This document shows positions 10,805 through 49,947 of a stretch of DNA of 64,000 nt, piece after piece. Under the pieces are notes generated by a model, which worked only from the letters and a program-made list of their open reading frames with translations, ran no database searches and was not told where the DNA came from. This DNA comes from a virus (taxonomy: Duplodnaviria; Heunggongvirae; Uroviricota; Caudoviricetes). A program made the translations under genes and the position numbers. Numbering within the stretch: position 1 is the first letter of the stretch; every line of letters begins with the position of its first letter. The stretch is taken from IMG/VR virus record IMGVR_UViG_2576861193_000002; one strand, given 5' to 3'.

Positions 10805-11020
10805 CAAACCCGGCCAACTGACTCTTAAAGGGGCCGCAGGAATTTTTCGTCTGAACTTTCGAAGCTCCTCTCCCTGAAGACAGAAAACTTCTGTGTGCTG
10901 TGGGAATATTGAATCTTTGCCTTAGATATAAATAATTTTATCCCGCCTGAAGTTTACATTATTTTATTTATCTGTTTTTCTAAATCAGACTGCACTCCTT
11001 ACTTAAATCAGGAGCCAGTC

Positions 11021-12220: not shown

Positions 12221-12231
12221 AGGGAGGTTAT

Positions 12232-12924
12232 ATGCTTACCCGTGAAAATATGCTTAATGGCACATTTGTCAGGGTGCATGAAGCGCTGCTCCCGGCGAAT
12301 ATGCTCTGGGACGCTGAAAAAATACGCGCATCAATGAACTCTACTCTGGAGGAGCGCCCGACGGGTGCTCCTGTCTGGATATTTGCCTACGGGTCATTGA
12401 TGTGGAATCCCGTGCTGGCGATTGAAGAAATGCAACGGGCCCGTCTGAAAGGATGGCAGCGCAGTTTCTGCATTCGTTTGATATCCGGACGAGCGACTCC
12501 TGATGTCCCCGGCAGGATGTTATCGCTCGACGAAGGTGGAATTACCGAAGGTATTGCGTTCAGACTGCCGGAATCGACTCTTATTAATGAGCTGGAAATT
12601 GTCTGGACGCGCGAGATGATAACCGGTCTTTACCGTCCGGTCTGGGCAGACGTTTCGCTAGGAAACGGTGAGGAAATTCAGGCGCTGGCTTTCGTATCAG
12701 ACAGACTGCATCCGCATTATGAACAGGACAATCTTACAGCGACCGTAGCGTTGAGCATCGCATCTGCCCGTGGAGACATTGGCACGAATGCAGATTATGT
12801 ATGGAAACTGCAGGCCACTCTGGGTGCGTTGGGAATACGGGATGATTACGTGAGTGAACTGGCCCTTGCTCTGCATGAGGCTCCCTGTAACGATAAACTT
12901 CATCAGCGAGGCGCTTCACTATGA
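12232..12924 (+). CDS. ChaC/gamma-glutamylcyclotransferase-like protein
   Basis: 230 aa; IFAYGSLMWNP motif typical of GGCT/ChaC fold. Confidence 0.7.
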   Translation: MLTRENMLNGTFVRVHEALLPANMLWDAEKIRASMNSTLEERPTGAPVWIFAYGSLMWNPVLAIEEMQRARLKGWQRSFCIRLISGRATPDVPGRMLSLDEGGITEGIAFRLPESTLINELEIVWTREMITGLYRPVWADVSLGNGEEIQALAFVSDRLHPHYEQDNLTATVALSIASARGDIGTNADYVWKLQATLGALGIRDDYVSELALALHEAPCNDKLHQRGASL

Positions 12925-13802
12925 GCCATCTGAGCCATCTGCGAACGTTTCTTGAGGCCTATCGCTCTGGCTCCTTTTCAAAGGCGGCAGAACTACTGGG
13001 CATCACTCAGCCCGCGGCGTCACAGCATATCCAGTCTCTTGAGACTCTGGTTGGTAAGCGTCTGTTTATCAGGCAGGCCAGAGGCGTGACGGCAACCGAA
13101 GCTGCGGATGAGCTTGCCCGCTCAGTTTCACCCTTCATTGATGGTCTGGAAGAAAAGCTGTCCTCTTTCCGGTCAGGCTCTGTACGCGGGGGAACAATTA
13201 ATCTGGCAGGACCGCCAGATTTTATTCATTCCCGGCTTGGGACAGTAATGGCTCCACTAATGAAGGAGGGGTATCGCCTACGCTTTCATACCGGCAATAA
13301 GCAACGTATTTATTCCCTTTTGCATGACGGGAGCGCCGATCTCGCTGTTACCGCATCTATGCCTGATGACCGTCTGTACGGCTATGCACATCTACTGACT
13401 GAACGCATGCTCCTTGTTCATGCTCCCGCCATGTCAGAGATCATCGGATCAGAACCTGGTGCTGAAACGCTTGCCTCATTACCGCTGATTGCTTATGACG
13501 AAGAGTTGCCACTGATTAGAGCGCTCTGGGCCTCCATGTTTCAGAGAGCCCCTGAGATGCAGGCTACATTCACCATTCCGGATTTACGTATTATCCGCGA
13601 CTTGGTCTGTGACGGCCACGGGTGGACAGTGCTGCCGGATTATCACTGTGACAATGACCTGAAAAGTGGTCGCCTGATTTCAGTGACACCTGCAGACCTC
13701 GCTCCGACTAATCATCTTTATCTGGTCTGGAACAAAAGGACGGCTAATAACAGCCGAACCGCCTATGTTCGGGATTACATTCTTAAAACGTTTCCGCGTT
13801 GA
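12921..13802 (+). CDS. LysR-family transcriptional regulator
   Basis: 293 aa; N-terminal HTH (…FSKAAELLGITQPAASQHIQSLE…); overlaps previous gene by 4 nt. Confidence 0.85.
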   Translation: MSHLSHLRTFLEAYRSGSFSKAAELLGITQPAASQHIQSLETLVGKRLFIRQARGVTATEAADELARSVSPFIDGLEEKLSSFRSGSVRGGTINLAGPPDFIHSRLGTVMAPLMKEGYRLRFHTGNKQRIYSLLHDGSADLAVTASMPDDRLYGYAHLLTERMLLVHAPAMSEIIGSEPGAETLASLPLIAYDEELPLIRALWASMFQRAPEMQATFTIPDLRIIRDLVCDGHGWTVLPDYHCDNDLKSGRLISVTPADLAPTNHLYLVWNKRTANNSRTAYVRDYILKTFPR

Positions 13803-13846
13803 TGTTTGAAACGGATGATTGGCGATGCGTATCATAAGTTACGTAT

Positions 13847-13870
13847 GTCCGCTTCTGGCACAAAGCAGAC
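13847..13870. repeat. hairpin repeat R1 (GTCCGCT-tctggcacaa-AGCAGAC)
   Basis: 24/30 identical to R2; sits between the LysR and DUF2254-like genes. Confidence 0.55.
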
Positions 13871-13932
13871 GCCCACTCTCACGCGAATGCTTTGCCCTTG
13901 ACTTGCCAACAACCGTATCGCTTGCTCCGCAA

Positions 13933-15225
13933 CTATGGTTTTTTATTAGAATCTTCGCCACTAAATAAATTATAATAAATTGATTTTATTAGATATCTGT
14001 CAGAATCTATATGGTCAGCACGAGTAGCATGCTCTAATGTTTCAAATGCTAGGGTTTGTGCGGCTTCAGCAAAAATTCCAGGCCAACCCTTACTCAGCAT
14101 CGACAGTCCTTTAAGTACCCTTATCTGAATTTCCCTCATACTGGCACCATCGCGCGCAACAGGTGAGAAAAAGTCTTCAAGTAGATCGTTATTCTGAAGT
14201 GGTGCAACATGTACAGAAGGATATTTCACTTCTATTTCATCAGATTTATTCTGCGCGTAAGCGGAAAGTATACGTACACCTCTGCCAATGACATCAATGG
14301 CGGTTCCAGGATCGTTCACTGCGGGGGAAAGGGCTCGGCAGGCTATTTCGGCCATGACGCTAAGACAAAATCGGGGGTCCTGAGCAAATGAACGTACATC
14401 CGAGACAATAATCGTCTCAAGTAAATCGGTGCTGATTGATGACTCCTGGCCCTGACTCAGGTACAAAACTGGCGTGGACGGATGTATGAAACTGCCCGGC
14501 TGCGCCACGAGGTATACATGACGGGGATCATTGGTCAGCAGCTTGCTGAGTTTCACCATATCAACATATTCAACATAGCCAATCTTTTTCGGATAAACTG
14601 CAACCGTTCCTTTCGGCTGTTCATTGTTCTCAAGCCATGGATATCCGCCGAGACAGGGATTTCTTGCTCTCGCAATAAATGTTTCGATGGCCGCCTGTTC
14701 TACTTTTGCCGTTGTCTCACCAACCCTCCCCAGAGAGGTCAAATGCTGTATCCAGCGAAGCAATGTGATGAGGATTAAGGCAATGACAACCAGTGTTACA
14801 ATGAATAAAATGACTCTCCCCCTTTCTCCATAAGCTCCCATATTGAGGGCAATAATCCCTACCAGACTGAAGAGAAAAGAACCGATGAAGGTGGCCAGTA
14901 CATTTTGTGTGGTGACGTCTTCAACAACTAAACGAGTAGCTCTGGGAGTCACATTAGTAGTGGCTGAACCGTAGGCTGTGACCATGATGCTCAGCGAAAA
15001 TGTGGTCACTGCCAGCATACTCGATGCCAGTATGTTCAGAATGTTATCGACTGCTTCCGCACCAACCTTCACGGAAACCGACTCAGGTATCATTGATTTA
15101 AAAAGAATTGATAAAAGGGCCGTTATTATTGCGACAATTGCGAATAACGTTGCCCTGAACCATAGTTTTTTAAATGTCTGCTTCAGCATCCATTTCCAGC
15201 GTGAAATCATTCTGCATTCCCTCAT
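13933..15225 (-). CDS. DUF2254-like membrane protein
   Basis: 430 aa; N-terminal TM helices then soluble domain. Confidence 0.55.
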   Translation of the reverse strand: MRECRMISRWKWMLKQTFKKLWFRATLFAIVAIITALLSILFKSMIPESVSVKVGAEAVDNILNILASSMLAVTTFSLSIMVTAYGSATTNVTPRATRLVVEDVTTQNVLATFIGSFLFSLVGIIALNMGAYGERGRVILFIVTLVVIALILITLLRWIQHLTSLGRVGETTAKVEQAAIETFIARARNPCLGGYPWLENNEQPKGTVAVYPKKIGYVEYVDMVKLSKLLTNDPRHVYLVAQPGSFIHPSTPVLYLSQGQESSISTDLLETIIVSDVRSFAQDPRFCLSVMAEIACRALSPAVNDPGTAIDVIGRGVRILSAYAQNKSDEIEVKYPSVHVAPLQNNDLLEDFFSPVARDGASMREIQIRVLKGLSMLSKGWPGIFAEAAQTLAFETLEHATRADHIDSDRYLIKSIYYNLFSGEDSNKKP

Positions 15226-32541: not shown

Positions 32542-34731
32542 TTATTCTTCGCTTCCGGTCAACTGCCGGACAAGCTCTTCAAGTTTTGTGATCCGTTCAT
32601 CCATGACGGCAATGTTAGCTCGTAGGCTGGCATTCTCCCCTTCCAGTTCGGTGACGCGGTTATCTGTTTCGTGTGCCACCTGGACAAGTAAGCCAGTCAC
32701 TGCGGCATAATCAACATTGAGGTAACGCGATTCTTCGCGTAGCTCGTTGCCATCAATGGTCGGCCCCTGCAACTCTTTGCCGTAATGAGTAAACGATCCA
32801 ACAGCCTCCGGTAGCGCCTCCATAACCTCCTGAGCGATAACACCAGCGTAAGGCAGGCCGTTTTCCTTAAGGGTATAAGTGTACCCGTTCATTTTGCGGA
32901 TGGCTTCAGTTGCGTTATTTATAACCTGAATGTTGTCTTTAAGGTCGCGATCAGATGATTGATTTACTGATAAGCAAGTAACGCTTCCAGACGCTTTAAT
33001 ATTTGTCACATCAAGTCTGTCGTTTGCAAAATTATATGAGATTGCTGTGCTTGTGCTTCCGGCATCATCATAATTGCTTTTATGAATAAACCAGTTTCCG
33101 CCATTAGCAATAAGGGTATAAGCTGGCGTGTTAGCCGGGCGATCTGTTTCATCAAATCTTATTGCAGGGTTAGCACTATTTATTTGCAAAGGTTTTTCAA
33201 GCGTTGATTTCAGTATCGCACTATCTACAATTAAATTACCTTCTGAGTTAAGGTTTAGATATTTTGAATCACCAGTTGAACCATTGTATACAAACCTTAT
33301 TGTTAATTGACTTTTCCCTTCTGATAAAGTCTGAGCATACATATAAGCTGCAAGACGCAAATCGTCGTTAGTTGACAATAGTCTTGTGCGGAGGATTCCA
33401 CTAGATGTGCCTACGTCTGTCGAATCACTATATTTATCAAGAAATAGACTATTAAGCTGAGGGCTATTATCCCTGCCCAACCCTAGATTAGTTCTGGCAT
33501 TATCAAGGCTTGTCGCACCAGTGCCGCCTTGAGCAACGGCTAACGGTATCCATTTTTTTTGCGTATCGCTGTAACAACCCCACGATGAGGCAGATAAACC
33601 AAGTCGCATAGAGTTGTCAGCGTTATATATCCATGTTTCGCTGCCCCACTCACTAACCCTTTCGGTTGATACCATTTTTTTCCATGCGCTCCAACCTTGC
33701 CCGCCATACGACCTTCTGTAACTAATTTTCATATCGTTAAACAAATAATAGGTCTGCATGCACCCTTCTGAATCACCTGCGCCAGTTTTTTGCACTAACA
33801 ATGAACCAGCAATCTGTATGGGGTAATTTAATTCAGGTTTTGCGTTTGCTGATAATACTTGATGATAAAATCCTGCTGCGCTTCCTTTTAAGTCATCAAG
33901 ATTCTGTCTATCGCTAAGGGTAGTTTTTGCATCATGCATAACCATTAGGTTTTTTCTGGCTTCTGCTGCGTTTCCAGCACCAGTACCGCCATACATAACG
34001 CCTAACTTAAGTGCCCCGGCGGTTGAATAAGCACCCCACCCAGCGTTATTAACGAAGATGTAATTTTTATTTTCTCCGTCCCGCAACTGAGTTTCTTTTG
34101 AGGAACCACCATTTTGAAGCAAGCGATTTACTTCATCCTTGCGTGCGTGGCGTGTCCAGTTCTGGCCTGATGCTGCGACCCATGTATAAGTATAAAGTGA
34201 TCGCGTAGACCAACCGACAAAGACGCCAGCATATGAAGGCGACGCATCCCGCTGACAGATAAATCCACTCAAAAATGATTCGCCAGCCGCTACGGAAGGA
34301 AAGCCCTTAGTCGTTTCCTTTATGCGCAAAAAGCCAACGTAAGAAGACGGATCGCCTGATATATCGACGCAATCTCGCGGCTCTGGACCCAAGCCAATAT
34401 TGCTGCCATCTATTGCGCTTGATATTTCATCTTCCTTTTCCTGATAAAAACGAAGTGTTTCAGCTACATCCTGGGCAAGCCCATCAACTGAGATCGAATC
34501 AGAAAGCAGAATACTAAATTTTGTTCCGGCAGGGATGGCGGGGTTAGCCGCTGGCGTTACTGACAGTTCAGTACCGCTTTTAATTTCTGTGATGGTAAAG
34601 ATCTGCACCGGATTGCCGATTGCAATGAGCGTGCAACCTACACGAATGAGAGAAAGCGGCGCGGAAAAGTTTGTTCCCGTGCCTGTAACAGTATTGCCAT
34701 TAATGGCAATTGTTCCAGTTGTGTAAATCAT
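32542..34731 (-). CDS. tail fibre/tailspike with C-terminal intramolecular chaperone (peptidase S74-like) domain
   Basis: 729 aa; C-terminus …DLKDNIQVINNATEAIRKMNGYTYT… with coiled-coil tail, typical of autoproteolytic fibre chaperone domains. Confidence 0.75.
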   Translation of the reverse strand: MIYTTGTIAINGNTVTGTGTNFSAPLSLIRVGCTLIAIGNPVQIFTITEIKSGTELSVTPAANPAIPAGTKFSILLSDSISVDGLAQDVAETLRFYQEKEDEISSAIDGSNIGLGPEPRDCVDISGDPSSYVGFLRIKETTKGFPSVAAGESFLSGFICQRDASPSYAGVFVGWSTRSLYTYTWVAASGQNWTRHARKDEVNRLLQNGGSSKETQLRDGENKNYIFVNNAGWGAYSTAGALKLGVMYGGTGAGNAAEARKNLMVMHDAKTTLSDRQNLDDLKGSAAGFYHQVLSANAKPELNYPIQIAGSLLVQKTGAGDSEGCMQTYYLFNDMKISYRRSYGGQGWSAWKKMVSTERVSEWGSETWIYNADNSMRLGLSASSWGCYSDTQKKWIPLAVAQGGTGATSLDNARTNLGLGRDNSPQLNSLFLDKYSDSTDVGTSSGILRTRLLSTNDDLRLAAYMYAQTLSEGKSQLTIRFVYNGSTGDSKYLNLNSEGNLIVDSAILKSTLEKPLQINSANPAIRFDETDRPANTPAYTLIANGGNWFIHKSNYDDAGSTSTAISYNFANDRLDVTNIKASGSVTCLSVNQSSDRDLKDNIQVINNATEAIRKMNGYTYTLKENGLPYAGVIAQEVMEALPEAVGSFTHYGKELQGPTIDGNELREESRYLNVDYAAVTGLLVQVAHETDNRVTELEGENASLRANIAVMDERITKLEELVRQLTGSEE

Positions 34732-34865
34732 CGCAATGACTCCATTTTGTTAATTAACGGAATAATTCTACCATTTTGTGATCTGTGTTGCATTTTATGC
34801 TTATACAAAATGTATATTATAATAAACAAAGCAACAAATACACACAATCTGAGTGGGGTGTACTA

Positions 34866-35084
34866 ATGAAAATGGTAACAATTATCGCTGTTGCGGCTAT
34901 TCTGGTTGGTTGCGCTGACACTAATCGACACAACGGTCATTGTGCAACTAGCGCATACGGTGTCTGCTATGAAAGATGGGTTGATGGTGTAATGGTTCCT
35001 GCCGGGGAAATTTGTCGGGTGTATGATGGCACTGATGGCCATAGTGGCAAGACTAGAGATTGCGGAAGTAAGGAGTGGTATTAA
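34866..35084 (+). CDS. Cys-rich small lipoprotein (candidate receptor-masking / superinfection exclusion)
   Basis: 72 aa; signal peptide + lipobox LVGC; 6 Cys; counter-oriented between tail fibre and J. Confidence 0.55.
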   Translation: MKMVTIIAVAAILVGCADTNRHNGHCATSAYGVCYERWVDGVMVPAGEICRVYDGTDGHSGKTRDCGSKEWY

Positions 35085-36019
35085 TGGGTGCAGGTATATA
35101 TATTGGGCTGAATGACGGACGCCCTGCAATGGAAATAACAAGCGGGTTGCGTGCGTTCTCACACGCTGGAGATTTCAATATTCAAAAGGCCGGGTTTTTG
35201 CAAAGTTTTTCCATAAAGGATTTAACTGGCGGAGATAAGTTTTTAATCCCAAAGGCAGGCGCTTACGCGTTTGAGCTTGACCGGGGCGTTGAAACATATT
35301 TTATATCAGGCTTTAGTGCTTCTGGTGGCACGGCAAGGATTTCAATTAGTGGTGAGAACGCATATTCTGATAGGATCACTAATTTTAGCGGTAGCGTGTT
35401 TGAGATAGCAAAGGCGTCTACTGGTGAGGGTATATTAGTTGCAGATAGCACAGGTTTTGCATCGATAACGACTAACGATACATTGATGTCATGTTTATGG
35501 GTTGGAAGTGTTAGCTTTACTGGGTCTTACACTATGCCAGTTGCTGGCGTTCCTTTCGGTAACTGGAGCAATAGCGGAGTTTCAGTTGAGTTTGACGGAA
35601 ACAATAAATTGATCTGTACAAACACAAACACCTCTTCCACTGGTGACACATATGGATCTGTGGCGATGAATTTGGCTATTTTTAGCAAATCACCGCCATC
35701 ACCTGGCGACGGAATAACCATCATCAATAAAAATAATCAATGCGTGTTTTCAACAAAACAAAGGCCATTGGTTGTTAAGGGATTTATAACGTTATCTAAT
35801 AGTTATCAGAATATTGGTGACGCATTCTTCCCAATATTGAGATGCGGCTTTAATACCAGAGCCATTAAAGCATACAAGGAGCTAAGATACAAAGGCATTA
35901 TGATGTACAATGGGCAGGTGAAAAGCGGAACAGGATCAAGGATTGTCAGGTATGAAATAGGTAACAGGCCGGATTTCTGTATAGGTATGAAGCTACCTTA
36001 TTTGCCAGCAATTTATTAA
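35084..36019 (+). CDS. hypothetical Ser/Thr/Gly-rich protein
   Basis: ~311 aa; ATG overlaps lipoprotein stop, SD aaggag; no recognisable family. Confidence 0.5.
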   Translation: MGAGIYIGLNDGRPAMEITSGLRAFSHAGDFNIQKAGFLQSFSIKDLTGGDKFLIPKAGAYAFELDRGVETYFISGFSASGGTARISISGENAYSDRITNFSGSVFEIAKASTGEGILVADSTGFASITTNDTLMSCLWVGSVSFTGSYTMPVAGVPFGNWSNSGVSVEFDGNNKLICTNTNTSSTGDTYGSVAMNLAIFSKSPPSPGDGITIINKNNQCVFSTKQRPLVVKGFITLSNSYQNIGDAFFPILRCGFNTRAIKAYKELRYKGIMMYNGQVKSGTGSRIVRYEIGNRPDFCIGMKLPYLPAIY

Positions 36020-43021: not shown

Positions 43022-43726
43022 TTAACCCACCTTGCTCGATCCAGGAAAACATGAAATTGGTAACGGATTCGGGCGCGGAAAACGCAAACGGCAACCGCTT
43101 AGGCGGTGGCTGCATTTGTCCATCCTTGGATCGTTGGTTGATTCGTCTTTATCGGTAGCTACAGGGCCGCCACTATATCCGCAACCGTCGCCGCGATACT
43201 GCCACTGGCAAACGTCAGCGAGAATTGTGCGCCCAGGGATAACAGCTTTATCAGCATCAATTGGCGTTGACAGTTCATATTGCACCTGGTCGGCTGTTTC
43301 TTCGCTCATCGCCTCAACGACGTAAAAAGATACAGCCTCAATAGATGGATCTGCATCTGGGTTGCCGTTGGGGAAGTTGATAGCGTCCAGGTATTTTACT
43401 TCCACCTGGCGGCGCGTAACCTTCATTCCTCGAAGGTCGTTAAAATCGTTATTCATCCCAGTGATTAGCCCGCCAATGTTGGCTACTACCATTTGGGGGC
43501 GTGAGTAAACGCCTTCGTTTTTCATTTCGAAGCCAGTCGCCTCGATTGGGTAGCTGTTGTAGGCCACTCCCTTCCAGATAACCGGGCCGTAATAGCCATT
43601 CGCGCCGGAATGGAAGCGGATAATCTCGCCACCCAGGGGCGTGAGGTCTAATTCAAACAAGTCAATTACCGCACCGACTCCGGCATCCACGGAATCAATA
43701 ATCATTTCTGTAGGTATGCTGCGCAT
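43022..43726 (-). CDS. minor tail protein L-like
   Basis: 234 aa; synteny M-L-K-I-J; C-terminal Cys cluster. Confidence 0.75.
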   Translation of the reverse strand: MRSIPTEMIIDSVDAGVGAVIDLFELDLTPLGGEIIRFHSGANGYYGPVIWKGVAYNSYPIEATGFEMKNEGVYSRPQMVVANIGGLITGMNNDFNDLRGMKVTRRQVEVKYLDAINFPNGNPDADPSIEAVSFYVVEAMSEETADQVQYELSTPIDADKAVIPGRTILADVCQWQYRGDGCGYSGGPVATDKDESTNDPRMDKCSHRLSGCRLRFPRPNPLPISCFPGSSKVG

Positions 43727-43743
43727 TTTATCACCTTGTAATT

Positions 43744-43807
43744 TGTGATCGACGTCACGCTAAATCATACCAAAACGGTTGATAGCGCTTTTTACAATAT
43801 GTATATT
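43744..43807 (+). promoter_or_regulatory. sigma70-type promoter with upstream CRP-like site for the moron cassette
   Basis: TGTGA-tcgacg-TCACg (43744-43759) centred ~62 bp upstream of predicted TSS; -35 TTGATA (43779-84), 17-bp spacer, -10 TATATT (43802-07). Confidence 0.5.
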
Positions 43808-43853
43808 GTACTCAAAAGGAAGCATGGTTAACAAAATGGCGCGGAGGTGTGAG

Positions 43854-44009
43854 ATGGTTGATAAGGTGTGGAGGTTGAAGGTATTCCTGGCGGATGGCAG
43901 GGAAATGACTGTAGCTCTGTATAAGGATGAAGGCGAGGCACTTACTGACGCGCTTTTACTCGCTGAAGACGAACGCGTTTTGGGGTACAGGATCGAACCC
44001 GTCAAATGA
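43854..44009 (+). CDS. hypothetical small protein (moron cassette gene 1)
   Basis: SD ggagg + ATG at 43854 (51 aa); the longer track ORF starts at 43779 inside the promoter. Confidence 0.45.
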   Translation: MVDKVWRLKVFLADGREMTVALYKDEGEALTDALLLAEDERVLGYRIEPVK

Positions 44010-44021
44010 GGGTTTAACAAA

Positions 44022-44372
44022 ATGCAAAAATACAGCTTAGATGTGTGGACTGATAAATGTGAATGGGAATGCATGGGCCTATTTGACACATATGCTGCGG
44101 CGCGTGATGAAGGTCGCGAATTACTTCTCTGTTGGTCTAACGCTCGTGATTTTGATATTACTCCGGTCCAAGTACCGGATAAGGTGGAAGAGATGAACCC
44201 TAAAGATATTGATGTTAGCTTCAATGTTAACTTTGCTGACTCTATGGATCAGTCTTGCCCTGGTGAAATACACGCAAAAGGTTTCCCCGCTGACGATCCA
44301 GAAGCAAAACGCGAATACGAAAAAGCGGCAAAAGATTTCTGTATCGACAATTTGTCTGCGTTCGATAAATAA
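44022..44372 (+). CDS. hypothetical acidic protein (moron cassette gene 2)
   Basis: 116 aa, rich in D/E, 5 Cys; no recognised family. Confidence 0.5.
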   Translation: MQKYSLDVWTDKCEWECMGLFDTYAAARDEGRELLLCWSNARDFDITPVQVPDKVEEMNPKDIDVSFNVNFADSMDQSCPGEIHAKGFPADDPEAKREYEKAAKDFCIDNLSAFDK

Positions 44373-44381
44373 GGCGGCAAC

Positions 44382-44630
44382 ATGGGGCGGCGCAATCACG
44401 GTGATTATGTGTACACGTTGAAACAGGCCGCCCGCCTCATCGGTTATCATGAGCACGAATTTATTGATTTGCTGATCGAGCGCGGGATTTTGTATCAGGT
44501 TTGTTTAACGCTGTACCCGAAAGCTAAGTACCTACAAGAAAAGTTATTCATCATTATGACGGATGAAAACCAGGTCAATCACTCATTCGTCACTGATAAA
44601 GGCGTTAATTATCTGCGTGATAACTTATAG
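44382..44630 (+). CDS. hypothetical protein with HTH-like segment (moron cassette gene 3)
   Basis: 82 aa; …YTLKQAARLIGYHEHEFIDLLIERGIL…. Confidence 0.5.
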   Translation: MGRRNHGDYVYTLKQAARLIGYHEHEFIDLLIERGILYQVCLTLYPKAKYLQEKLFIIMTDENQVNHSFVTDKGVNYLRDNL

Positions 44631-44781
44631 GTGACAGATTATAAAATAGAAGTTTTGGCGCTAATAATAATGGGACTGATAGTATTTGGCGTTCACGCTG
44701 TCGATTGGGACTGGGCGGCGATAGCCAATAACATGGCGCACGCTCACCCAATGAGTTTGATGTACATTAACTACTGACAAG

Positions 44782-44811
44782 AAAAACCCCGCACGAAGCG
44801 GGGTTGTTTTT
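44782..44811. terminator. bidirectional intrinsic terminator
   Basis: aaccccgc-acgaa-gcggggtt flanked by A-run and T-run. Confidence 0.65.
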
Positions 44812-44995
44812 ATACATCATCAACCAAAAATAAAACTTCCTTCCCTTCCCTGGATCTGCACCCCACGTACCCATCACCCATATCATGTAGATACCAGGTA
44901 TCGCCATTGTCAGCCTTTACAGTAAGGTCGTTGATCTCGTAGTCGTCAAATAATGTAAAAGCGTCAGTTTTGTCCACTACACAAGTCCCGTACAT
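44810..44995 (-). CDS. hypothetical small protein downstream of M
   Basis: 61 aa from MYGTCVV with SD gggggt; acidic. Confidence 0.4.
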   Translation of the reverse strand: MYGTCVVDKTDAFTLFDDYEINDLTVKADNGDTWYLHDMGDGYVGCRSREGKEVLFLVDDV

Positions 44996-45006
44996 ATTAA
45001 CCCCCA

Positions 45007-45360
45007 CTAGCTGACAACTTGCTCAAATGTTGCGTTTAGCGTGTATACAGGCCCGTCCTTTGTCATACTCCAGCTACGGCAAACAAAAAGCCTTTGCACG
45101 CCATCCATAGACGGCGACCAGTAAAAAGCCTCGACAGCGCCGCGCGCCCTCAAGAATGCTTCTGCCTGGATCGCTACGTTCCCACCATCACCGCATCCTG
45201 CACTACTGCCTTTAAAGACCAGGGTGTAGCTATCAAGCAACGTGTTAATCCCTTTCGCCTGGCGCTGTTCATAACCATCACCAAGTTTAATGACAGATAC
45301 GTTTGGTTCCCTGGTCACGCTGTAGCTTCTTTGCGGCGTCCATCTGAAAACTTCTGGCAT
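45007..45360 (-). CDS. minor tail protein M-like
   Basis: 117 aa; between tape measure and L. Confidence 0.65.
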   Translation of the reverse strand: MPEVFRWTPQRSYSVTREPNVSVIKLGDGYEQRQAKGINTLLDSYTLVFKGSSAGCGDGGNVAIQAEAFLRARGAVEAFYWSPSMDGVQRLFVCRSWSMTKDGPVYTLNATFEQVVS

Positions 45361-45529
45361 GATTCCCCCTATAAGTTACATATTGCATACATCTTTACGC
45401 GCTTCTACGCGAAAAATGAGAAATTCATCACAAGAATTATAACCAGTTTACAAAATGGCTTCACATAAGGCGTGACAAGATGTATATAGTAAGCAAGAAG
45501 AAAAAGCAGTACCGACAAAGGGGGGCAAT

Positions 45530-45685
45530 ATGGAACGCTATGTGGTTGTGATGCTGAACAAAGCATTCGAACAGGTGGAAGTTGCGATTGTGAAGGGCTT
45601 TGATGATGCATTCAAATACGGTCAATTTATGATGAATGCGAAGGAAAATGAGTACCGTGATTTCTTCCTAAAAGTAGTCAACTGA
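45530..45685 (+). CDS. hypothetical 51-aa protein (first gene of T5orf172 cassette)
   Basis: Strong SD aaagggggg then ATG; MERYVVVMLNKAFEQVEVAIVKGFDDAFKYGQFMMNAKENEYRDFFLKVVN. Confidence 0.45.
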   Translation: MERYVVVMLNKAFEQVEVAIVKGFDDAFKYGQFMMNAKENEYRDFFLKVVN

Positions 45686-45705
45686 TTGATTGCGTGGGGT
45701 GAGTT

Positions 45706-45960
45706 ATGAAATTGGTAATGATTGGCAAAAACCTGAAAGCTCAGAAAAACGCGCCGGAACATGTAGTTAAAAAAGCAAAGGAACTTTTGAACGCGTTTTT
45801 AAACAAGAATGCGTCACCCAAAAAATTGAAAGACGGTTACGGCTACGCCTTCCGCGCCAATTTAGACTGGCGAGTCTATAGCCAGGATCTGAAGGAGTGG
45901 GTGATTGTTGAACACCATAAATTCAATGAATTGTCTGGCGTTCGCGGTTGCCATAAGTAA
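45706..45960 (+). CDS. hypothetical 84-aa basic protein (weak RelE/ParE-like C-terminal pattern)
   Basis: SD ggggtgag; …GYGYAFRANLDWRVYSQDLKEWVIVEHHKF… is reminiscent of RelE-fold toxins but unconfirmed. Confidence 0.45.
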   Translation: MKLVMIGKNLKAQKNAPEHVVKKAKELLNAFLNKNASPKKLKDGYGYAFRANLDWRVYSQDLKEWVIVEHHKFNELSGVRGCHK

Positions 45961-46047
45961 GGCGGGATATGGATGACGATAAATTCACCCGGCGGGAGAT
46001 CTGGAATATTTAGTTGGTGATTTTCGTGAGGGGATATATCTCGCGGA

Positions 46048-47007
46048 ATGGTCGGATATAAAATGGGTGTGATTATGGCGCGAAAAATGACACATGAAGA
46101 ACATATTGCAGATATAGCAAATGTCAATCCTCGTGTTGATATTTTAGGAGAAATTACAGGCTGCAATGATAAGGTGTCGTGTCGTTGCAGAGTTTGTAAC
46201 CACAAATGGCGTACTACGCCGCACAGCCTTAAGGCTGGCAGGGGCTGCCCCGAATGTAAAAGAACAAAGATAGCACGAATAAAACAACTATCACATAACG
46301 ATCATGTTGCTGCAATTGCTAATGTTAATCCATTTGTTGAAGTGCTAGAAAAAATTGTTAATGTAAAGAAAAAGATCGCATGTCGTTGTAATAATTGCAA
46401 AAACATATGGATGACTACGCCAAATGATCTCAAAAACGGTCACGGCTGTCCGAAATGCTCTGGCGTAGCGAAGCTGTCACATGAAGAGCAGATTGCAGCT
46501 ATTGCGAAAGTTAACCAAAATGTTGATGTAATAGGCAATATTGTTAATGACAAAACAAAAGTATCATGCCGCTGCAAGGCTTGCGGTCATGTGTGGTCGG
46601 CTACGCCTAACGACCTTAAAAATGGGCGCGGCTGCCCGAAATGCGCGAAACGAGGGTTTTTATCCCACGAACACGGAAAACTTTACATCATGGTTGATGA
46701 TCTTGAAGTGCCAACAATGATGAAAATCGGCGTGAGCGTTAAGGAGAACGAGCGAAGAAATAAAGTATTAAAAAGCGCACATAAAGCAGGTGTCAGAATC
46801 CCTGATTTGTATGTCGTGAAAACGTGGGTGGGGCCAACTGAAAAAGTACAAGAATTAGAAAGCACGATGCATAAGGCTTTTAGCAATTATAAAATTAACT
46901 TCCCTGTAAAATTTGATGGCAGTAATGAATTTTTCTACTACAGGCCGGAAGTATTCAGCATGGTAGAAAGTACATACAGTGATATTGTAAATAAAAATGC
47001 GGCATGA
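46048..47007 (+). CDS. T5orf172 / GIY-YIG-like domain protein with three tandem zinc-ribbon repeats
   Basis: 319 aa; three ~60-aa repeats each with CRCxxC…GCPxC; C-terminal LYIMVDD…MMKIGVS GIY-YIG-like motif. Confidence 0.6.
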   Translation: MVGYKMGVIMARKMTHEEHIADIANVNPRVDILGEITGCNDKVSCRCRVCNHKWRTTPHSLKAGRGCPECKRTKIARIKQLSHNDHVAAIANVNPFVEVLEKIVNVKKKIACRCNNCKNIWMTTPNDLKNGHGCPKCSGVAKLSHEEQIAAIAKVNQNVDVIGNIVNDKTKVSCRCKACGHVWSATPNDLKNGRGCPKCAKRGFLSHEHGKLYIMVDDLEVPTMMKIGVSVKENERRNKVLKSAHKAGVRIPDLYVVKTWVGPTEKVQELESTMHKAFSNYKINFPVKFDGSNEFFYYRPEVFSMVESTYSDIVNKNAA

Positions 47008-47047
47008 ATATTCAGCCCACCACCATTAGTGACGGGCTTATTCTTAG

Positions 47048-49255
47048 TTATCTTTTTCGTGGCTGTATAATCCCCCCGGGGCGCGTGCTCTGCTCCCTCA
47101 CAACACCCATAGCAACCTTCTTCATCGTCTCTTGCAGTTTGGCGCTGTCCTGCTCGGTCCATCCGTTCTCGGCTGTTATGTTGATGGTAACAGGCATGTT
47201 GATGCCGCCACCGCCGCCAATGTCGCGATTTGGTATTACCCTGCCGTTGTCACCCGGAATCATGTACTGCTCGCCGTTTCGAGATTGGAAGATCTCTGGC
47301 TTGCCGTGCTCGCCAACCCTATAAAGATTATTGCTATTAACCGCACCGCCGTTATAACGAGCGCCAGCAAGCCCAAGCGCCTTAGCCCCAGCCACACCAG
47401 TGGCAAGACTCGTGCCCCCCACGGTCGCCGCTCCGCCCATCGTGGCAACGTTTGCCAGGTATGCAGGAGTGGCCCACGCAGATCCTAATGCAGTAGCCTC
47501 GGCTAGTGCTTTAGCTGTTGCCGCAGCGCTGGCGGCCTCACCGATCAATTGCTGTTTAACCCATTCAGCCCCCATTTGAACAAGTGTACCGATAACGGAG
47601 GAAAGGATTGTATTGCCAATGTTAGCCAGCGCCTGCTGCCAACTTTGAGTGCCGTTAACCAGGCCCACAAGCGCATTTGTTGCAGATCCTCCCATTGCAT
47701 CAACGGTATCACCCAATAGTTTGTAGCTCATTGACTGTGCTTTATATCGCTCCCATTCAATGGAGATCATTTCTTGTGCGTGCGCTCTTTCTTGCTCCTT
47801 CATGTATTGCTCGGTAGCGCCAAGATCTTCCAGCATTTGCTTGCGTATGGTCCATTCATTTTGCGCCTGCTGTATTGGGTCCAGCTCGCCGCGCTTCTGA
47901 TCCAGTGATGAAATCATTTTGTCCCATTTTTCTTGCAGCCTATTGATCGGGTCGTTAATTTCTGCTAGAGTTTCGCGCAATTCATCACCAATTCCCTTCA
48001 TTGCGCCTTTGTATTCAAGCATGGTTATTTTCCCGGCTTTAAAGGCTGCATCTATGGCTTTTTGTGATTCAAGCGCTTTGCGCATTGCTGCTGAATCTTC
48101 GTTGTATGCATCTGAAATGCGCACACCCTGTTCCGCAAGGCGCTCGGCTTCTGATTTGCCGGATTTTTTACCTTTGCCTTTATTACCCTTGCCACCAGGT
48201 TGAGGCTTAAATGTTATGCGACTTACACCAGCTTGCCCCGTGGGGAGAGTGGAAACAAATGGCTGTTCTCCATCGCCAAACCATCCAACCTGTTTTGCTT
48301 GAGCGCGGAACAAACTAAGCCCAGGCACTATACCCTCAAACGCCCCAGCCAATAGCCACAATTTGTCAGTTAATGACGTGCTGTCGCTCGCCAGGGACTT
48401 AAACCAGCCGGATAATATTTGGACTTCACTAGAGATAGCTTGTATACCAGTAACCACCAAATCGGACACGCCAAGCGTTTGATTTAGCGTGTCGATTAGC
48501 AGATCGAAGTTGTTTTTTAGCTCGTTAAATGCCTGATCTGTTGTTGTTGGCAGCTTTGCGAAGTCCTTCTCTATGTCTTCTGCGCCAGCAAGAATTGCGT
48601 TGGTAACATCCTCAGCGGTGAGCTTACCATCAAGCATTCTTGCGCGAAGTTCACCCATCGAGATTCCCATTTGTTTGGATACGCGCCGCCACACCTCTGG
48701 CATGTTTTCAAGTACAGAGTTGTATTCTTCCGCGCGAACAATGCCGCCCGTCAGTGACTGCCCTAACTGGCGAAGTGCGTTTGACATTTCATCTGATGAG
48801 CTACCACCGATACGCCCTATTTTTTGAAGCGAGTCGGTAAGCTGCAATACCTGCTGACTTGTCGCACTGGTATCCTGAAGGCTGGCCTTCAGGCTTTCCC
48901 ACAGCTTCCCGGTGCTTTGAACGCTCATCCCTGTACGATTCGATATCTGAATAATCCCGTCAAAATTCGATTTTGCGTCAGCAATGCCACTCGACAGGCG
49001 CGTCACCCTGGCACGAAGCAGATTTACGTTATCCGCGATCTCCAGGAATTTTTTTGCAGCCATAACCATCATCCCAATGTTCACAGCTTTAGATAAATTA
49101 CTTATTGTGGTGTTAAGTGACTTTACTGATTTATCGGTGCGTTTAGCGCCTTGCTCGATTTTATCAAACGAGTCTTCAGCCTTGCGTTGAGCTACAAGTA
49201 ACCGTTCGGTTTTTGCGTCAACGGTATATTCGATCGTGCCTACATTTGTGGTCAT
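47048..49255 (-). CDS. tail tape measure protein
   Basis: 735 aa, coiled-coil rich, Gly-rich C-terminal region; between tail chaperone and M. Confidence 0.85.
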   Translation of the reverse strand: MTTNVGTIEYTVDAKTERLLVAQRKAEDSFDKIEQGAKRTDKSVKSLNTTISNLSKAVNIGMMVMAAKKFLEIADNVNLLRARVTRLSSGIADAKSNFDGIIQISNRTGMSVQSTGKLWESLKASLQDTSATSQQVLQLTDSLQKIGRIGGSSSDEMSNALRQLGQSLTGGIVRAEEYNSVLENMPEVWRRVSKQMGISMGELRARMLDGKLTAEDVTNAILAGAEDIEKDFAKLPTTTDQAFNELKNNFDLLIDTLNQTLGVSDLVVTGIQAISSEVQILSGWFKSLASDSTSLTDKLWLLAGAFEGIVPGLSLFRAQAKQVGWFGDGEQPFVSTLPTGQAGVSRITFKPQPGGKGNKGKGKKSGKSEAERLAEQGVRISDAYNEDSAAMRKALESQKAIDAAFKAGKITMLEYKGAMKGIGDELRETLAEINDPINRLQEKWDKMISSLDQKRGELDPIQQAQNEWTIRKQMLEDLGATEQYMKEQERAHAQEMISIEWERYKAQSMSYKLLGDTVDAMGGSATNALVGLVNGTQSWQQALANIGNTILSSVIGTLVQMGAEWVKQQLIGEAASAAATAKALAEATALGSAWATPAYLANVATMGGAATVGGTSLATGVAGAKALGLAGARYNGGAVNSNNLYRVGEHGKPEIFQSRNGEQYMIPGDNGRVIPNRDIGGGGGINMPVTINITAENGWTEQDSAKLQETMKKVAMGVVREQSTRPGGIIQPRKR

Positions 49256-49381
49256 GATTGCTACTCCAGTTTTGTGATCTGTGTCTCTATTTTATACAAA
49301 ATGGCTTTACTTCAGCGACTCCATTTTGTATAAGGAAGCCATAGGGAACAGTTAAGAAATCAAACAAAAACGAGGTGAATT

Positions 49382-49561
49382 ATGAAAAGTTTAATCAACA
49401 AAATTCTGGTGGTTGCCATTGCTCTTGCAATCTGTGTGCACATGACCGTGCTTTACTGGCAAGCTCCAAATGCAATGCTCATGATGCAGATCGCAGGTCA
49501 AAAGGCGTTCATCCCTGGCTGGGGTGCGCTGGATGCTTTAATCCGCTGGTTTATGGCTTAA
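49382..49561 (+). CDS. small membrane protein (59 aa)
   Basis: SD gaggtg + ATG; MKSLINKILVVAIALAICVH… with one TM helix. Confidence 0.5.
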   Translation: MKSLINKILVVAIALAICVHMTVLYWQAPNAMLMMQIAGQKAFIPGWGALDALIRWFMA

Positions 49562-49572
49562 AGGTGCTAATT

Positions 49573-49947
49573 ATGAAAAACGTATTAAAAGCCGCGCTGA
49601 TTGGTGTTATTGCTCTGTCGCTCGCTGGGTGTGCAAGATCAACTGATTTTGTTAGGTTGGCTGATAATAAGTTGCAGGCTGGAATGACTTGCGAGCAGGT
49701 TACTAAAATCATGGGTGAGCCTCAAAGGATTGAGTATGACGGTAAGTACAGCTATCACGTATGGTGGTCGGTAACAAGTACGGTAGGTTTTACATACATG
49801 GATGTTGAAGAGTTATCCCCTTCAAGGGTTATAGCGAAGTTTGATAATTGTATTCTGAAAGAATGGAAAGATCGCAGCAAGGCGAAGACTGTATATGGCA
49901 CAATTACTCACAGCTCACCAGGCGCTGCCGTCAAAGATTTCAATTAA
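49573..49947 (+). CDS. lipoprotein (124 aa)
   Basis: Signal peptide + lipobox LAGC; translationally coupled to preceding small ORF. Confidence 0.6.
   Translation: MKNVLKAALIGVIALSLAGCARSTDFVRLADNKLQAGMTCEQVTKIMGEPQRIEYDGKYSYHVWWSVTSTVGFTYMDVEELSPSRVIAKFDNCILKEWKDRSKAKTVYGTITHSSPGAAVKDFN

What the first reader, a model, noticed from the sequence alone, without database searches (positions are those of the whole stretch)
45385..47007. Counter-oriented cassette between tape measure and M: T5orf172/GIY-YIG-like protein with triplicated zinc ribbons plus two small partner ORFs
Three plus-strand genes sit inside a minus-strand tail operon: a 51-aa ORF, an 84-aa basic ORF with a faint RelE/ParE-like C-terminal pattern, and a 319-aa protein with three ~60-aa CRCxxC…GCPxC repeats and a C-terminal LYIMVDD…MMKIGVS nuclease-like motif. 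The first two have strong SDs (aaagggggg, ggggtgag). T5orf172-type nuclease domains recur in anti-phage systems and homing elements, so this looks like a prophage-encoded defence or exclusion module, possibly toxin/antitoxin-like. I do not recognise it as a named system.
Basis: partly seen in the sequence, partly recalled or inferred. Interest (0 to 1): 0.85.

Follow-up and report, generated by a model that had tools for sequence, protein, structure and literature searches.

The report
Homing-endonuclease-type gene in prophage tail operon
The three counter-oriented genes are real, but they are not one new defence system: the large one belongs to an already described family of selfish phage nuclease genes (T5orf172 "homing endonucleases" with tandem zinc-ribbon DNA-binding modules) that has landed next to a small, lineage-conserved gene pair of unknown function.

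Summary
Observation confirmed. Three + strand ORFs (51, 84 and 319 aa) lie between minor tail protein M and the tape measure gene of an mEp021-like (mEpimmI) E. coli prophage. The profile calls hold: the 319-aa protein has 3 DUF4379/CapR zinc-ribbon repeats plus a T5orf172 domain with a GIY-YIG fold and conserved Tyr/Arg/Glu, and the 84-aa protein matches Pfam ParE_like.

The "single cassette" reading is not supported. The 51/84 pair is present in every relative examined. The third slot varies: small ORFs in most, an HNH endonuclease in two, and the T5orf172 gene in few. That gene occurs with 3 repeats here, 5 in mEp013, and as a 5-repeat copy broken by two stop codons in mEp021.

Paralogs with 2-6 repeats sit in the replication module of related prophages. 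Relatives also occur in rV5-like, T5-like and Vibrio phages. This architecture is published as a putative homing endonuclease family (Barth, Dunham, Seed 2023). The gene lies at a recombination breakpoint and replaces a terminator conserved in gene-less relatives.

Toxin-antitoxin status of the 51/84 pair is weakened, because each gene is found inactivated while the other stays intact.

Verdict: new member of a known kind; modest interest.

The parts
45361..45529 (+). Intergenic leader between M and the 51-aa ORF, highly conserved. It holds a candidate sigma-70 promoter, TTCACA (45460-45465), 17 nt, TATATA (45483-45488), and a direct repeat TACGCG-N4-TACGCG (45396-45411).
   Evidence: An alignment of 13 related loci shows long invariant blocks, including the -35-like hexamer and TGTATA(T/C)AG. 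The tool's promoter scan did not report it because position 6 of the -10 is A. Promoter function is inferred.
45530..45685 (+). 51-aa ORF, lineage-specific small protein of unknown function (phrog_29810).
   Evidence: Strong SD. PHROG 1.5e-34, no Pfam, NCBIfam or PADLOC hit. 60 homolog clusters at 58-98% identity; every one that carries an organism name is E. coli or mEp013, and the rest are unnamed metagenome or run-assembly sequences. The 68-aa form called elsewhere is out of frame here.
45706..45960 (+). 84-aa basic ORF, member of Pfam PF24732 ParE_like (phrog_1525).
45969..46062 (+). Spacer holding the decayed remnant of a conserved 30-codon ORF (stop at 46011-46013). This is the left edge of the variable slot: homology to gene-less relatives ends at about 46024.
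46048..47007 (+). Homing-endonuclease-type gene. The maximal ORF is 319 aa; the probable start is 46063 or 46075 (314 or 310 aa).
   Evidence: Pfam DUF4379 x3, CapR x3 and T5orf172. PHROG 681 'endonuclease' 7e-59. 615 homologs. AF2 pLDDT 86.7.
46090..46662 (+). Array of three zinc-ribbon (CapR/DUF4379, treble-clef type) repeats: R1 46090-46290, R2 46291-46476, R3 46477-46662. Presumed modular DNA-binding domain.
   Evidence: repeat alignment. (Cys, Trp, Pro and Gly scaffold invariant in 43 homologs). (hypervariable positions recur at the same places in each repeat; the array is more divergent than the nuclease domain in 39 of 42 homologs). DNA binding by the CapR Cys4 domain was shown experimentally for CapR itself (PMC8096241).
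46663..47004 (+). T5orf172 (GIY-YIG superfamily) nuclease domain. In 319-aa numbering: Tyr213 (LYIM), Lys226-Ile-Gly228 (KIGVS), Arg236 and Glu294 (NEFF).
47008..47047 (.). Gene-linked intergenic spacer with a weak hairpin (AGCCC 47014-47018 / GGGCT 47034-47038). It replaces the bidirectional terminator AACCCCGGCATTG(T/C)(A/G)CCGGGGTT. Eight of the 9 gene-less relatives carry that terminator; the ninth, L019, has a different G+C-rich hairpin at the same place.
47048..47205 (-). 3' end of the tape measure gene (last ~52 codons). This is the right edge of the variable slot and a recombination breakpoint, and a candidate region for the cleavage or co-conversion tract.
   Evidence: The gene-less relatives MLI107 and M15 are 92% nt identical from 47205 onward. 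Before that point they are not alignable at nt level, and 45-62% identical at aa level.
45007..45360 (-). Flank: minor tail protein M.
   Evidence: PF05939 9e-29.
47048..49255 (-). Flank: tape measure protein.
   Evidence: PF20155 4e-52.

Best explanation
The region is a composite accessory island. It is counter-oriented and sits in the M|H gap of the tail operon of an mEp021-like (mEpimmI) temperate coliphage integrated in E. coli.

Part 1 is a lineage-conserved two-gene unit: the 51-aa protein and the 84-aa PF24732 ParE_like protein. Its function is unknown, and it is probably not an obligate toxin-antitoxin pair.

Part 2 is the interesting one: a free-standing homing-endonuclease-type gene of the CapR/DUF4379 + T5orf172 family.

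Proposed mechanism:
1. The three tandem Cys4 zinc-ribbon modules read a long asymmetric DNA site.
2. The C-terminal T5orf172 (GIY-YIG fold) domain cuts nearby.
3. When a gene-carrying and a gene-less relative meet in one cell, the gene-less M|H junction is cut. The target is most likely the terminator / tape-measure 3' end.
4. The break is repaired from the gene-carrying genome, which copies in the gene together with the adjacent tape-measure 3' end.

Shown here: domain architecture, GIY-YIG fold, conserved catalytic-type residues, sporadic presence at one fixed site, flanking recombination breakpoints, repeat-number variation, a decayed copy, and paralogs elsewhere.

Inferred: DNA binding, cleavage, the target, and homing itself.
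For: Architecture and fold:
- Pfam DUF4379/CapR x3 plus T5orf172 and MUG113, all above cut-off.
- PHROG 681 'endonuclease', 7e-59.
- AF2 pLDDT 86.7 with a beta-beta-alpha-beta-alpha C-terminal domain.
- Tyr, Lys-Ile-Gly, Arg and Glu are invariant in 43 homologs.

Sporadic presence at one site:
- None of the complete E. coli genomes that match the 51/84 part of the query (17 by my count of the listed rows), and none of the 7 phage records, matches the nuclease gene contiguously at >=85% nt identity.
- Of those 7 phages, two carry diverged 5-repeat copies at this slot: mEp013 intact, and mEp021 broken by two in-frame stops and annotated as two CDS.
- L003 and L009, found through their proteins, carry close 3-repeat copies at the same site.
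- An HNH endonuclease occupies the island in mEp515 and strain E21845/O/A.

Boundaries:
- Homology to gene-less relatives ends at about 46024 and resumes at 47205, inside the tape measure.
- L009 is 93% identical to the right of the gene and 78% to the left.
- The terminator hairpin conserved in 8 of 9 gene-less genomes is absent from all gene-carrying genomes.

Mobility and family:
- Paralogs at 64-69% aa identity, with 2, 3 and 6 repeats, lie between the replication initiator and DnaB in related prophages.
- Those paralogs reach 87% nt identity over the nuclease domain only.
- tblastn finds relatives in 846 phage records, including rV5-like, T5-like and Vibrio phages. Some are annotated 'putative homing endonuclease'.
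- The zinc-ribbon array evolves faster than the nuclease domain, with recurrent hypervariable positions.

Literature:
- T5orf172 HEGs carry repeated CapR/DUF723/DUF4379 Zn domains (a six-repeat example is figured) and cluster near tape measure and replicase genes (PMC10448857).
- DNA binding by CapR depends on its Cys4 motif (PMC8096241).
- The T5orf172 nuclease Odn cuts DNA in a Glu-dependent way (PMC8263062).
Against: - No cleavage, target site or super-Mendelian inheritance has been shown for this protein. To my knowledge none has been shown for any CapR+T5orf172 gene either; the papers cited call them putative HEGs.
- The tape-measure C-terminal allele linked to the gene (VAMGVVREQS) also occurs in one gene-less genome, L019. 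Linkage is therefore not absolute.
- Mosaic recombination between moron islands could alone produce the breakpoints.
- The gene is counter-oriented to the late operon and probably co-transcribed with the 51/84 pair. That placement fits a lysogen-expressed accessory gene as well as it fits a selfish element.
- No separate promoter for the nuclease gene was found.
Confidence: 0.62

Rival explanations
1. The nuclease is a domesticated conflict gene, either stand-alone or helped by its neighbours. One version is a prophage-expressed exclusion nuclease that cuts related superinfecting phages or satellites, as Odn does. The other is a CapR-like DNA-binding regulator. In neither version is it an actively homing element.
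For: - It lies in a counter-oriented moron island behind a conserved promoter-like leader, a typical place for lysogen-expressed genes.
- Members of this family have been co-opted before: Odn as an anti-satellite nuclease (PMC8263062) and CapR as a repressor (PMC8096241).
- There is a weak PADLOC domain-level hit to the candidate PDC-S57, 2.5e-5.
- Fast-evolving recognition positions suit an arms race.
Against: - Sporadic presence, a pseudogenised copy at the same site and paralogs in lytic phages fit a selfish-element life cycle better.
- There is no system-level PADLOC match.
- The catalytic-type residues are intact, which argues against a pure regulator.
- Exclusion and homing are not mutually exclusive.
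Confidence: 0.2
2. One reading: the three genes form one prophage defence or exclusion module, in which a ParE/RelE-like toxin, its antitoxin and the nuclease act together.
For: - The genes are adjacent, on the same strand and tightly spaced, with strong SDs.
- ParE_like and T5orf172 profile hits.
- Nuclease genes (T5orf172 or HNH) recur immediately downstream of the 84-aa gene.
Against: - The third gene is missing from most genomes that carry the pair.
- L009 keeps the nuclease while its 84-aa gene is frameshifted.
- Nuclease homologs occur without the pair in other genomic contexts.
- No PADLOC system matches.
Confidence: 0.05
3. Independently of the nuclease, the 51-aa and 84-aa genes are a type II toxin-antitoxin pair: an antitoxin upstream and a RelE/ParE-fold toxin downstream. 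The pair would stabilise the prophage or cause abortive infection.
For: - PF24732 ParE_like above cut-off in all 13 family members.
- RefSeq names relatives 'ParE family toxin-like protein'.
- The best PDB profile hits, though sub-threshold, are YoeB toxins, E 0.16-0.22.
- The layout is typical for toxin-antitoxin pairs: a small acidic ORF 20 nt upstream of a basic ORF.
Against: - Two independent lineages have the 51-aa gene inactivated while the 84-aa gene is intact: a 1-nt deletion in L023 (3 contigs) and Gln32-to-stop in L024 (4 contigs).
- Distant ParE_like homologs in 140-kb and 348-kb phage contigs have no 51-aa homolog upstream.
- The 51-aa protein stays 88-98% identical while the 84-aa protein splits into alleles about 60% identical, so there is no co-variation.
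- The 51-aa protein has no recognisable DNA-binding or antitoxin domain.
Confidence: 0.2

Closest known systems
T5orf172 putative homing endonucleases with CapR / DUF723 / DUF4379 zinc-finger repeats (ICP1 gp174, gp165, gp121 and others; T5-like and other phages; Barth, Dunham and Seed 2023, PMC10448857; Netter et al. 2021, PMC8096241)
   Same: - Same two-part architecture: an N-terminal array of repeated Cys4 zinc modules and a C-terminal T5orf172 domain.
- Same variability in repeat number.
- Same tendency to sit next to tape measure or replicase genes and at boundaries of genetic exchange.
- All of these features are seen here.
   Different: - The host is a temperate, Nus-dependent coliphage lineage (mEpimmI), and the gene lies in a counter-oriented moron island inside the tail operon. 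The word 'temperate' does not occur in the text of PMC10448857.
- Sequence similarity to ICP1 proteins is at profile level only.
Odn (ICP1 Gp88), origin-directed T5orf172 nuclease (PMC8263062)
   Same: A T5orf172 catalytic domain with conserved Arg and Glu. Odn is the experimental proof that this domain cleaves DNA where the attached DNA-binding domain directs it.
   Different: Odn uses a RepA_N DNA-binding domain and acts as an anti-satellite weapon. The window protein uses three zinc ribbons, and its target is unknown.
CapR of Vibrio PLE satellites (PMC8096241)
   Same: The zinc-ribbon repeat matches the Pfam CapR model (PF21817, 6.8e-15). DNA binding by CapR depends on its four Cys residues.
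   Different: CapR is a 15.5-kDa repressor without a nuclease domain. Its Cys pattern is CxxC...CxC, whereas here it is CxCxxC...CPxC.
CapR-like x3-5 + EDxHD/Vsr homing endonucleases in phage group I and II introns (PMC12350094)
   Same: Three to five ~60-aa CapR/DUF4379/DUF723-like modules followed by a ~100-aa nuclease domain.
   Different: The nuclease fold differs (Vsr/EDxHD rather than GIY-YIG/T5orf172). Those genes are intron-encoded; this one is free-standing and intergenic.
Free-standing GIY-YIG homing endonucleases of T4 (Seg proteins) and I-TevI
   Different: There is no PF01541 GIY-YIG match; the hit is to the T5orf172 subfamily, which has Lys-Ile-Gly in place of Tyr-Ile-Gly. The DNA-binding part is a zinc-ribbon array rather than NUMOD/HTH modules.
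RelE/ParE/YoeB type II toxins (for the 84-aa protein)
   Same: Pfam PF24732 ParE_like match. The motif KKL..G.G.....R(L/V).S aligns weakly to the helix and beta-strand region of YoeB. Size and gene order are similar.
   Different: - No significant similarity to any solved toxin: E 0.16, hhalign probability 3%.
- The predicted antitoxin is dispensable in nature.
- The family also occurs in large lytic phage genomes.

Membership tests
CapR/DUF4379 + T5orf172 putative homing endonucleases | C-terminal T5orf172 (PF10544/PF13455) domain | tested here: met
   PF10544 scores 24.1 bits against a cut-off of 20. PF13455 scores 22.9 against 22.3. Both cover residues 212-304.
CapR/DUF4379 + T5orf172 putative homing endonucleases | GIY-YIG-type fold with catalytic Arg and Glu retained | tested here: met
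CapR/DUF4379 + T5orf172 putative homing endonucleases | One or more N-terminal Cys4 zinc-finger DNA-binding modules (CapR, DUF723 or DUF4379) | tested here: met
   Three stretches each of PF14311 (1.7e-18) and PF21817 (6.8e-15). All Cys residues are invariant.
CapR/DUF4379 + T5orf172 putative homing endonucleases | Sporadic presence or absence among close relatives at a fixed site next to an essential gene | tested here: met
   Present in the window, L003, L009 and mEp013. Decayed in mEp021. Absent from the 9 gene-less loci examined in detail, and from the other complete E. coli genomes and phage records that match only the 51/84 part.
CapR/DUF4379 + T5orf172 putative homing endonucleases | Site-specific cleavage of the gene-less allele and super-Mendelian inheritance (homing) | not testable with these tools
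   This needs a nuclease assay and phage crosses. It has not been shown for any family member in the papers read.
Canonical GIY-YIG homing endonucleases (PF01541; I-TevI / Seg) | Match to the GIY-YIG catalytic domain profile with the Tyr-x-Gly second motif | tested here: not met
   PF01541 is not among the Pfam hits at E<=1. The second motif is Lys-Ile-Gly. The relationship is at superfamily and fold level only.
Type II toxin-antitoxin (RelE/ParE superfamily), 51/84 pair | Toxin with RelE/ParE fold | tested here: inconclusive
Type II toxin-antitoxin (RelE/ParE superfamily), 51/84 pair | Cognate antitoxin gene adjacent and co-conserved with the toxin | tested here: not met
   The genes are adjacent within the mEpimmI lineage only. 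Distant ParE_like homologs have unrelated upstream ORFs. There is no co-variation: the 51-aa protein is 88-98% identical while the 84-aa alleles are about 60% identical.
Type II toxin-antitoxin (RelE/ParE superfamily), 51/84 pair | Antitoxin indispensable while the toxin gene is intact | tested here: not met
   In L023 the 51-aa gene has a frameshift and in L024 a nonsense codon, while the 84-aa gene is intact in both. These variants are seen in 3 and 4 contigs respectively. Caveat: a truncated or re-initiated product could still act.
Type II toxin-antitoxin (RelE/ParE superfamily), 51/84 pair | Toxicity of the toxin and its neutralisation by the antitoxin | not testable with these tools
   Needs expression experiments.
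Known anti-phage defence systems (PADLOC-DB v2) | Profile match of the component proteins to a described system | tested here: not met
   The only hits are weak domain-level matches of the T5orf172 part to the candidates PDC-S57 (2.5e-5) and PDC-S54 (7e-3). The 51- and 84-aa proteins match nothing.

The most novel reading that the evidence does not exclude
In this temperate lineage the island is transcribed from its own conserved promoter in the lysogen. The zinc-ribbon/T5orf172 enzyme would then act as both a drive and a shield. It cuts the terminator / tape-measure 3' end of incoming gene-less mEpimmI relatives, which excludes them or converts them to gene carriers. The conserved 51/84 pair would serve as a landing pad, or as a helper, for nuclease genes (T5orf172 or HNH). 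This would be a prophage-borne homing endonuclease acting as a superinfection-exclusion device, with a programmable tandem zinc-ribbon reader.
Probability: 0.15. Interest if true: 0.55.

Novelty: new member of a known kind. Interest (0 to 1): 0.3.

Why it matters
The family is abundant. This search found 615 close homologs, and tblastn found relatives in 846 phage records. Yet in the papers read here, no member has a mapped target or demonstrated homing.

The mEpimmI phages infect E. coli K-12 and offer natural allelic states at one site:
- gene-less phages (mEp515, mEp010);
- an intact 5-repeat copy (mEp013);
- a broken copy (mEp021);
- a 3-repeat copy (this prophage).

This makes the lineage a tractable system for three questions. 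Do CapR/T5orf172 genes really home? How do tandem zinc ribbons encode DNA specificity? Does such a gene in a prophage also exclude rival phages?

For genome annotation, the result warns against reading adjacent moron genes as one defence system. It also shows that mEp021_66 and mEp021_65 are the two halves of one broken gene.

Tried and rejected
- **phmmer of the 319- and 84-aa proteins against PDB sequences:** nothing significant.
- **Tandem Repeats Finder on the gene:** no DNA-level tandem repeat; the units are only 58-69% identical.
- **Rfam scan of 43500-47500:** no RNA family.
- **Promoter and terminator scan:** no + strand promoter reported for the island and no terminator after the nuclease gene. 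The candidate promoter comes from conservation only.
- **NCBIfam:** no meaningful hits.
- **Strict linkage between the gene and a tape-measure C-terminal allele:** considered and rejected, because L019 has the allele without the gene.
- **Second copy of the family inside the window:** none found by tblastn.
Full report
**Observation**

The window carries three + strand ORFs: 45530-45685 (51 aa), 45706-45960 (84 aa) and 46048-47007 (319 aa). They lie between two - strand tail genes. One is minor tail protein M at 45007-45360 (PF05939, 9e-29). The other is the tape measure at 47048-49255 (PF20155, 4e-52).

Both small ORFs have strong Shine-Dalgarno sites. The 84-aa protein is basic (pI 9.9) and the 51-aa protein mildly acidic (pI 5.2).

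The large protein contains three units of 62-67 aa that share 47-55% identity. Each carries CxCxxC...CPxC. The C-terminal part contains LYIMVDD...MMKIGVS.

One correction concerns the start codon. The first ATG (46048) lies inside the decayed remnant of a 30-codon ORF that is conserved in relatives. Homologs begin at M[AGS]RK[LM]THEE. The real product therefore probably starts at 46063 or 46075 and is 314 or 310 aa long.

**What the large protein is**

- Pfam gives three stretches each of DUF4379 ("probable treble clef zinc finger", 1.7e-18) and of the CapR homology domain (6.8e-15).
- Pfam also gives T5orf172 (24.1 bits, cut-off 20) and MUG113 (22.9 bits, cut-off 22.3) at residues 212-304.
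- PHROG 681 "endonuclease" matches at 7e-59.
- An AlphaFold2 model built on 43 homologs has mean pLDDT 86.7. It shows three beta-hairpin/helix zinc-ribbon units followed by a beta-beta-alpha-beta-alpha domain.
- In the 43-sequence alignment, all the Cys residues and the Trp/Pro/Gly scaffold of each repeat are invariant. So are Tyr213, Lys226-Ile-Gly228, Arg236 and Glu294 (319-aa numbering) of the nuclease domain.

In the literature, T5orf172 is a GIY-YIG subfamily. The T5orf172 nuclease Odn of phage ICP1 cleaves DNA in vitro, and the cleavage requires the corresponding glutamate (PMC8263062). The CapR zinc domain binds DNA through its four cysteines (PMC8096241).

**This architecture is already described**

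Barth, Dunham and Seed (PMC10448857) define "T5orf172 HEGs". In their set, 87% carry one or more CapR, DUF723 or DUF4379 zinc-finger modules, and a six-repeat example is figured. They note that these genes cluster next to tape measure and replicase genes and sit at boundaries of genetic exchange.

A 2025 paper describes three to five CapR-like modules fused to a different nuclease (EDxHD/Vsr) in intron-borne homing endonucleases (PMC12350094).

This is a member of that family.

**Distribution**

The prophage belongs to the mEp021 / mEpimmI group of Nus-dependent temperate coliphages (PMC11893012). The paper on that group does not discuss these genes.

The 51/84 pair is present at the M|H gap in every relative examined. 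These include the phage records and annotated E. coli loci fetched here (MagusPhagus, mEp515, mEp013, mEp021, MLI107, M15, strain 190, STEC308, RM9245) and several metagenomic contigs.

The slot after the 84-aa gene is polymorphic:
- Most genomes carry only 30-59-aa ORFs there.
- mEp515 and strain E21845/O/A carry an HNH endonuclease.
- The zinc-ribbon/T5orf172 gene is found in this window, in L003 (97% aa identity) and in L009 (82%), with three repeats in each case.
- mEp013 carries it as an intact 436-aa, five-repeat form.
- mEp021 carries it as a five-repeat copy interrupted by two in-frame stop codons, annotated as two separate CDS.

No complete E. coli genome holds the whole cassette.

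Close homologs (64-69% identity) with two, three or six repeats occupy a second hot spot. That site lies between the replication initiator and the DnaB helicase of related prophages, including mEp021 and mEp013. They share up to 87% nucleotide identity with the window gene, but only over the nuclease domain.

tblastn finds relatives in 846 phage records. These include rV5-like and T5-like coliphages, in some of which the gene is annotated "putative homing endonuclease".

Among the best 120 homologs, approximate motif counting gives 2 to 6 repeats, and 118 retain the nuclease motif.

**Boundaries**

- Homology to gene-less relatives stops at about 46024 and resumes at 47205, inside the tape measure gene. 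The last ~52 codons of the tape measure differ between carriers and the otherwise 92%-identical gene-less prophages MLI107 and M15.
- L009 is 93% identical to the window to the right of the gene but only 78% to the left.
- Eight of the nine gene-less genomes examined have a conserved bidirectional terminator hairpin, AACCCCGGCATTG(T/C)(A/G)CCGGGGTT, abutting the tape measure stop codon. The ninth (L019) has a different G+C-rich hairpin there. All four carriers have a different sequence at that place.
- The linkage is not absolute. L019 carries the carrier-type tape-measure C-terminus without the gene.

**Evolutionary pattern within the protein**

The zinc-ribbon array is more divergent than the nuclease domain in 39 of 42 homologs (median identity 57% against 77%). 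The hypervariable positions fall at the same places in each repeat: before the first Cys strand, after the invariant Trp, after the invariant Pro, and between the two Gly residues. This is what one expects of specificity-determining residues on a fixed scaffold.

**The 51/84 pair**

- The 84-aa protein and all twelve relatives tested match Pfam PF24732 ParE_like.
- The family is small: 11 representative clusters in 1.84 billion proteins.
- A profile search of the PDB puts YoeB toxins first, but below significance (E 0.16-0.22).
- hhalign against YoeB gives 3% probability.

Three observations argue against an obligate toxin-antitoxin pair.
1. The 51-aa gene carries a frameshift in L023 and a nonsense codon in L024, while the 84-aa gene is intact in both. 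Conversely, L009 has a frameshifted 84-aa gene with an intact 51-aa gene.
2. The 51-aa protein stays 88-98% identical across relatives, while the 84-aa protein splits into two alleles about 60% identical.
3. Distant ParE_like homologs in 140-kb and 348-kb phage contigs have unrelated upstream genes.

PADLOC, NCBIfam and Pfam give nothing for the 51-aa protein. Its homologs, where they carry an organism name, are all from E. coli or mEp013; most are unnamed metagenomic sequences.

**Expression**

The 170-nt leader upstream of the 51-aa ORF is more conserved than the coding sequences. It contains TTCACA-17 nt-TATATA (45460-45488) and a TACGCG-N4-TACGCG direct repeat. The consensus scan did not report a promoter there, so this is an inference.

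No separate promoter precedes the nuclease gene, which is probably co-transcribed with the pair.

The lineage is Nus-dependent (PMC11893012). It is therefore plausible, though inferred, that antiterminated late transcription reads through these counter-oriented, terminator-flanked islands.

**Conclusion**

However, the region is a composite, not one system. It combines a conserved small gene pair of unknown role with a sporadic, free-standing, homing-endonuclease-type gene of a published family.

The most likely mechanism is as follows. The three-ribbon array recognises a DNA site. The GIY-YIG-type domain cuts the gene-less M|H junction. Recombinational repair then copies in the gene together with the adjacent tape-measure 3' end.

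Rival readings remain possible:
- An exclusion or anti-satellite nuclease, or a domesticated regulator (about 0.2).
- A toxin-antitoxin role for the pair (about 0.2).

The one-module reading is largely refuted by the distribution.

Novelty: new member of a known kind. The value lies in a tractable E. coli K-12 phage system for testing homing and zinc-ribbon DNA recognition in this family.

Noticed in passing
window 43779-44630 (+): A second counter-oriented moron island lies between tail genes L and M. It has ORFs of 76 aa (likely 51 aa; annotated 'transporter' in RefSeq relatives), 116 aa (phrog_38567) and 82 aa (KilAC/ANT C-terminal domain, PF03374 7e-7). The island is conserved across the lineage. 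It has a predicted promoter at 43779-43807 and ends at a bidirectional terminator at 44785-44805.
   Followed up: partly
window 49375-49947 (+): A third counter-oriented island lies between the tape measure and the DUF6246 gene. It encodes a lipoprotein-like ORF (MKNVLKAALIGVIALSLAGC...; weak BamE and DUF7738 hits below cut-off). Relatives carry different genes in this position: 'TagO' in MLI107, and 59-165-aa ORFs elsewhere. Every gap of this tail operon therefore hosts variable + strand cargo.
   Followed up: partly
L025 3186-4520 (phage mEp021, MH706966.1 40127-41461): The CDS annotated as mEp021_66 ('zinc-ribbon domain-containing protein', 158 aa) and mEp021_65 ('hypothetical', 157 aa) are the two ends of one five-repeat T5orf172 gene. 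Two in-frame stop codons in repeat 3 interrupt it. It is either a pseudogene or a sequencing error.
   Followed up: yes
L004-L013, L026, L027 (early regions of related E. coli prophages): A second hot spot for the same nuclease family lies between the replication initiator (HTH_36 or Lin1244_N type) and a 372-aa protein plus DnaB. Alleles there have 2, 3 and 6 zinc-ribbon repeats. mEp021 additionally has an HNH endonuclease two genes downstream.
   Followed up: partly
L009 4491-5001: In this carrier of the nuclease gene, the 84-aa ParE_like gene appears frameshifted at a poly-A run and was not called as a gene. The 51-aa gene is intact.
   Followed up: partly
window 45396-45411 and 45361-45529: A perfectly conserved direct repeat TACGCG-N4-TACGCG and long invariant blocks lie in the M|51-aa intergenic region, which is more conserved than the neighbouring coding sequence. 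This may be an operator or an RNA element. Rfam finds nothing.
   Followed up: partly
PDB 6yxx_E2 and 6sga_Fd (structure matches): The closest solved structures to the zinc-ribbon repeats are trypanosome mitoribosome assembly factors: a 'DUF4379 domain-containing protein' and mt-SAF33. The same repeat fold is therefore used in eukaryotic organellar ribosome biogenesis.
   Followed up: no
window 44810-45007 (-): A conserved 65-aa ORF (phrog_3249) lies directly downstream of M on the tail-operon strand. It is present in most relatives and its function is unknown.
   Followed up: no
window 1-~32000 and 32542-36019: The left part of the window is E. coli chromosome; 11000-15000 is 100% identical to chicken isolates and encodes an MFS transporter, DUF2254, LysR and other genes. 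The prophage tail-fibre end holds a 729-aa protein with a Peptidase_S74 chaperone domain and a + strand DUF6453 gene. The prophage early region lies beyond the right end of the window.
   Followed up: partly
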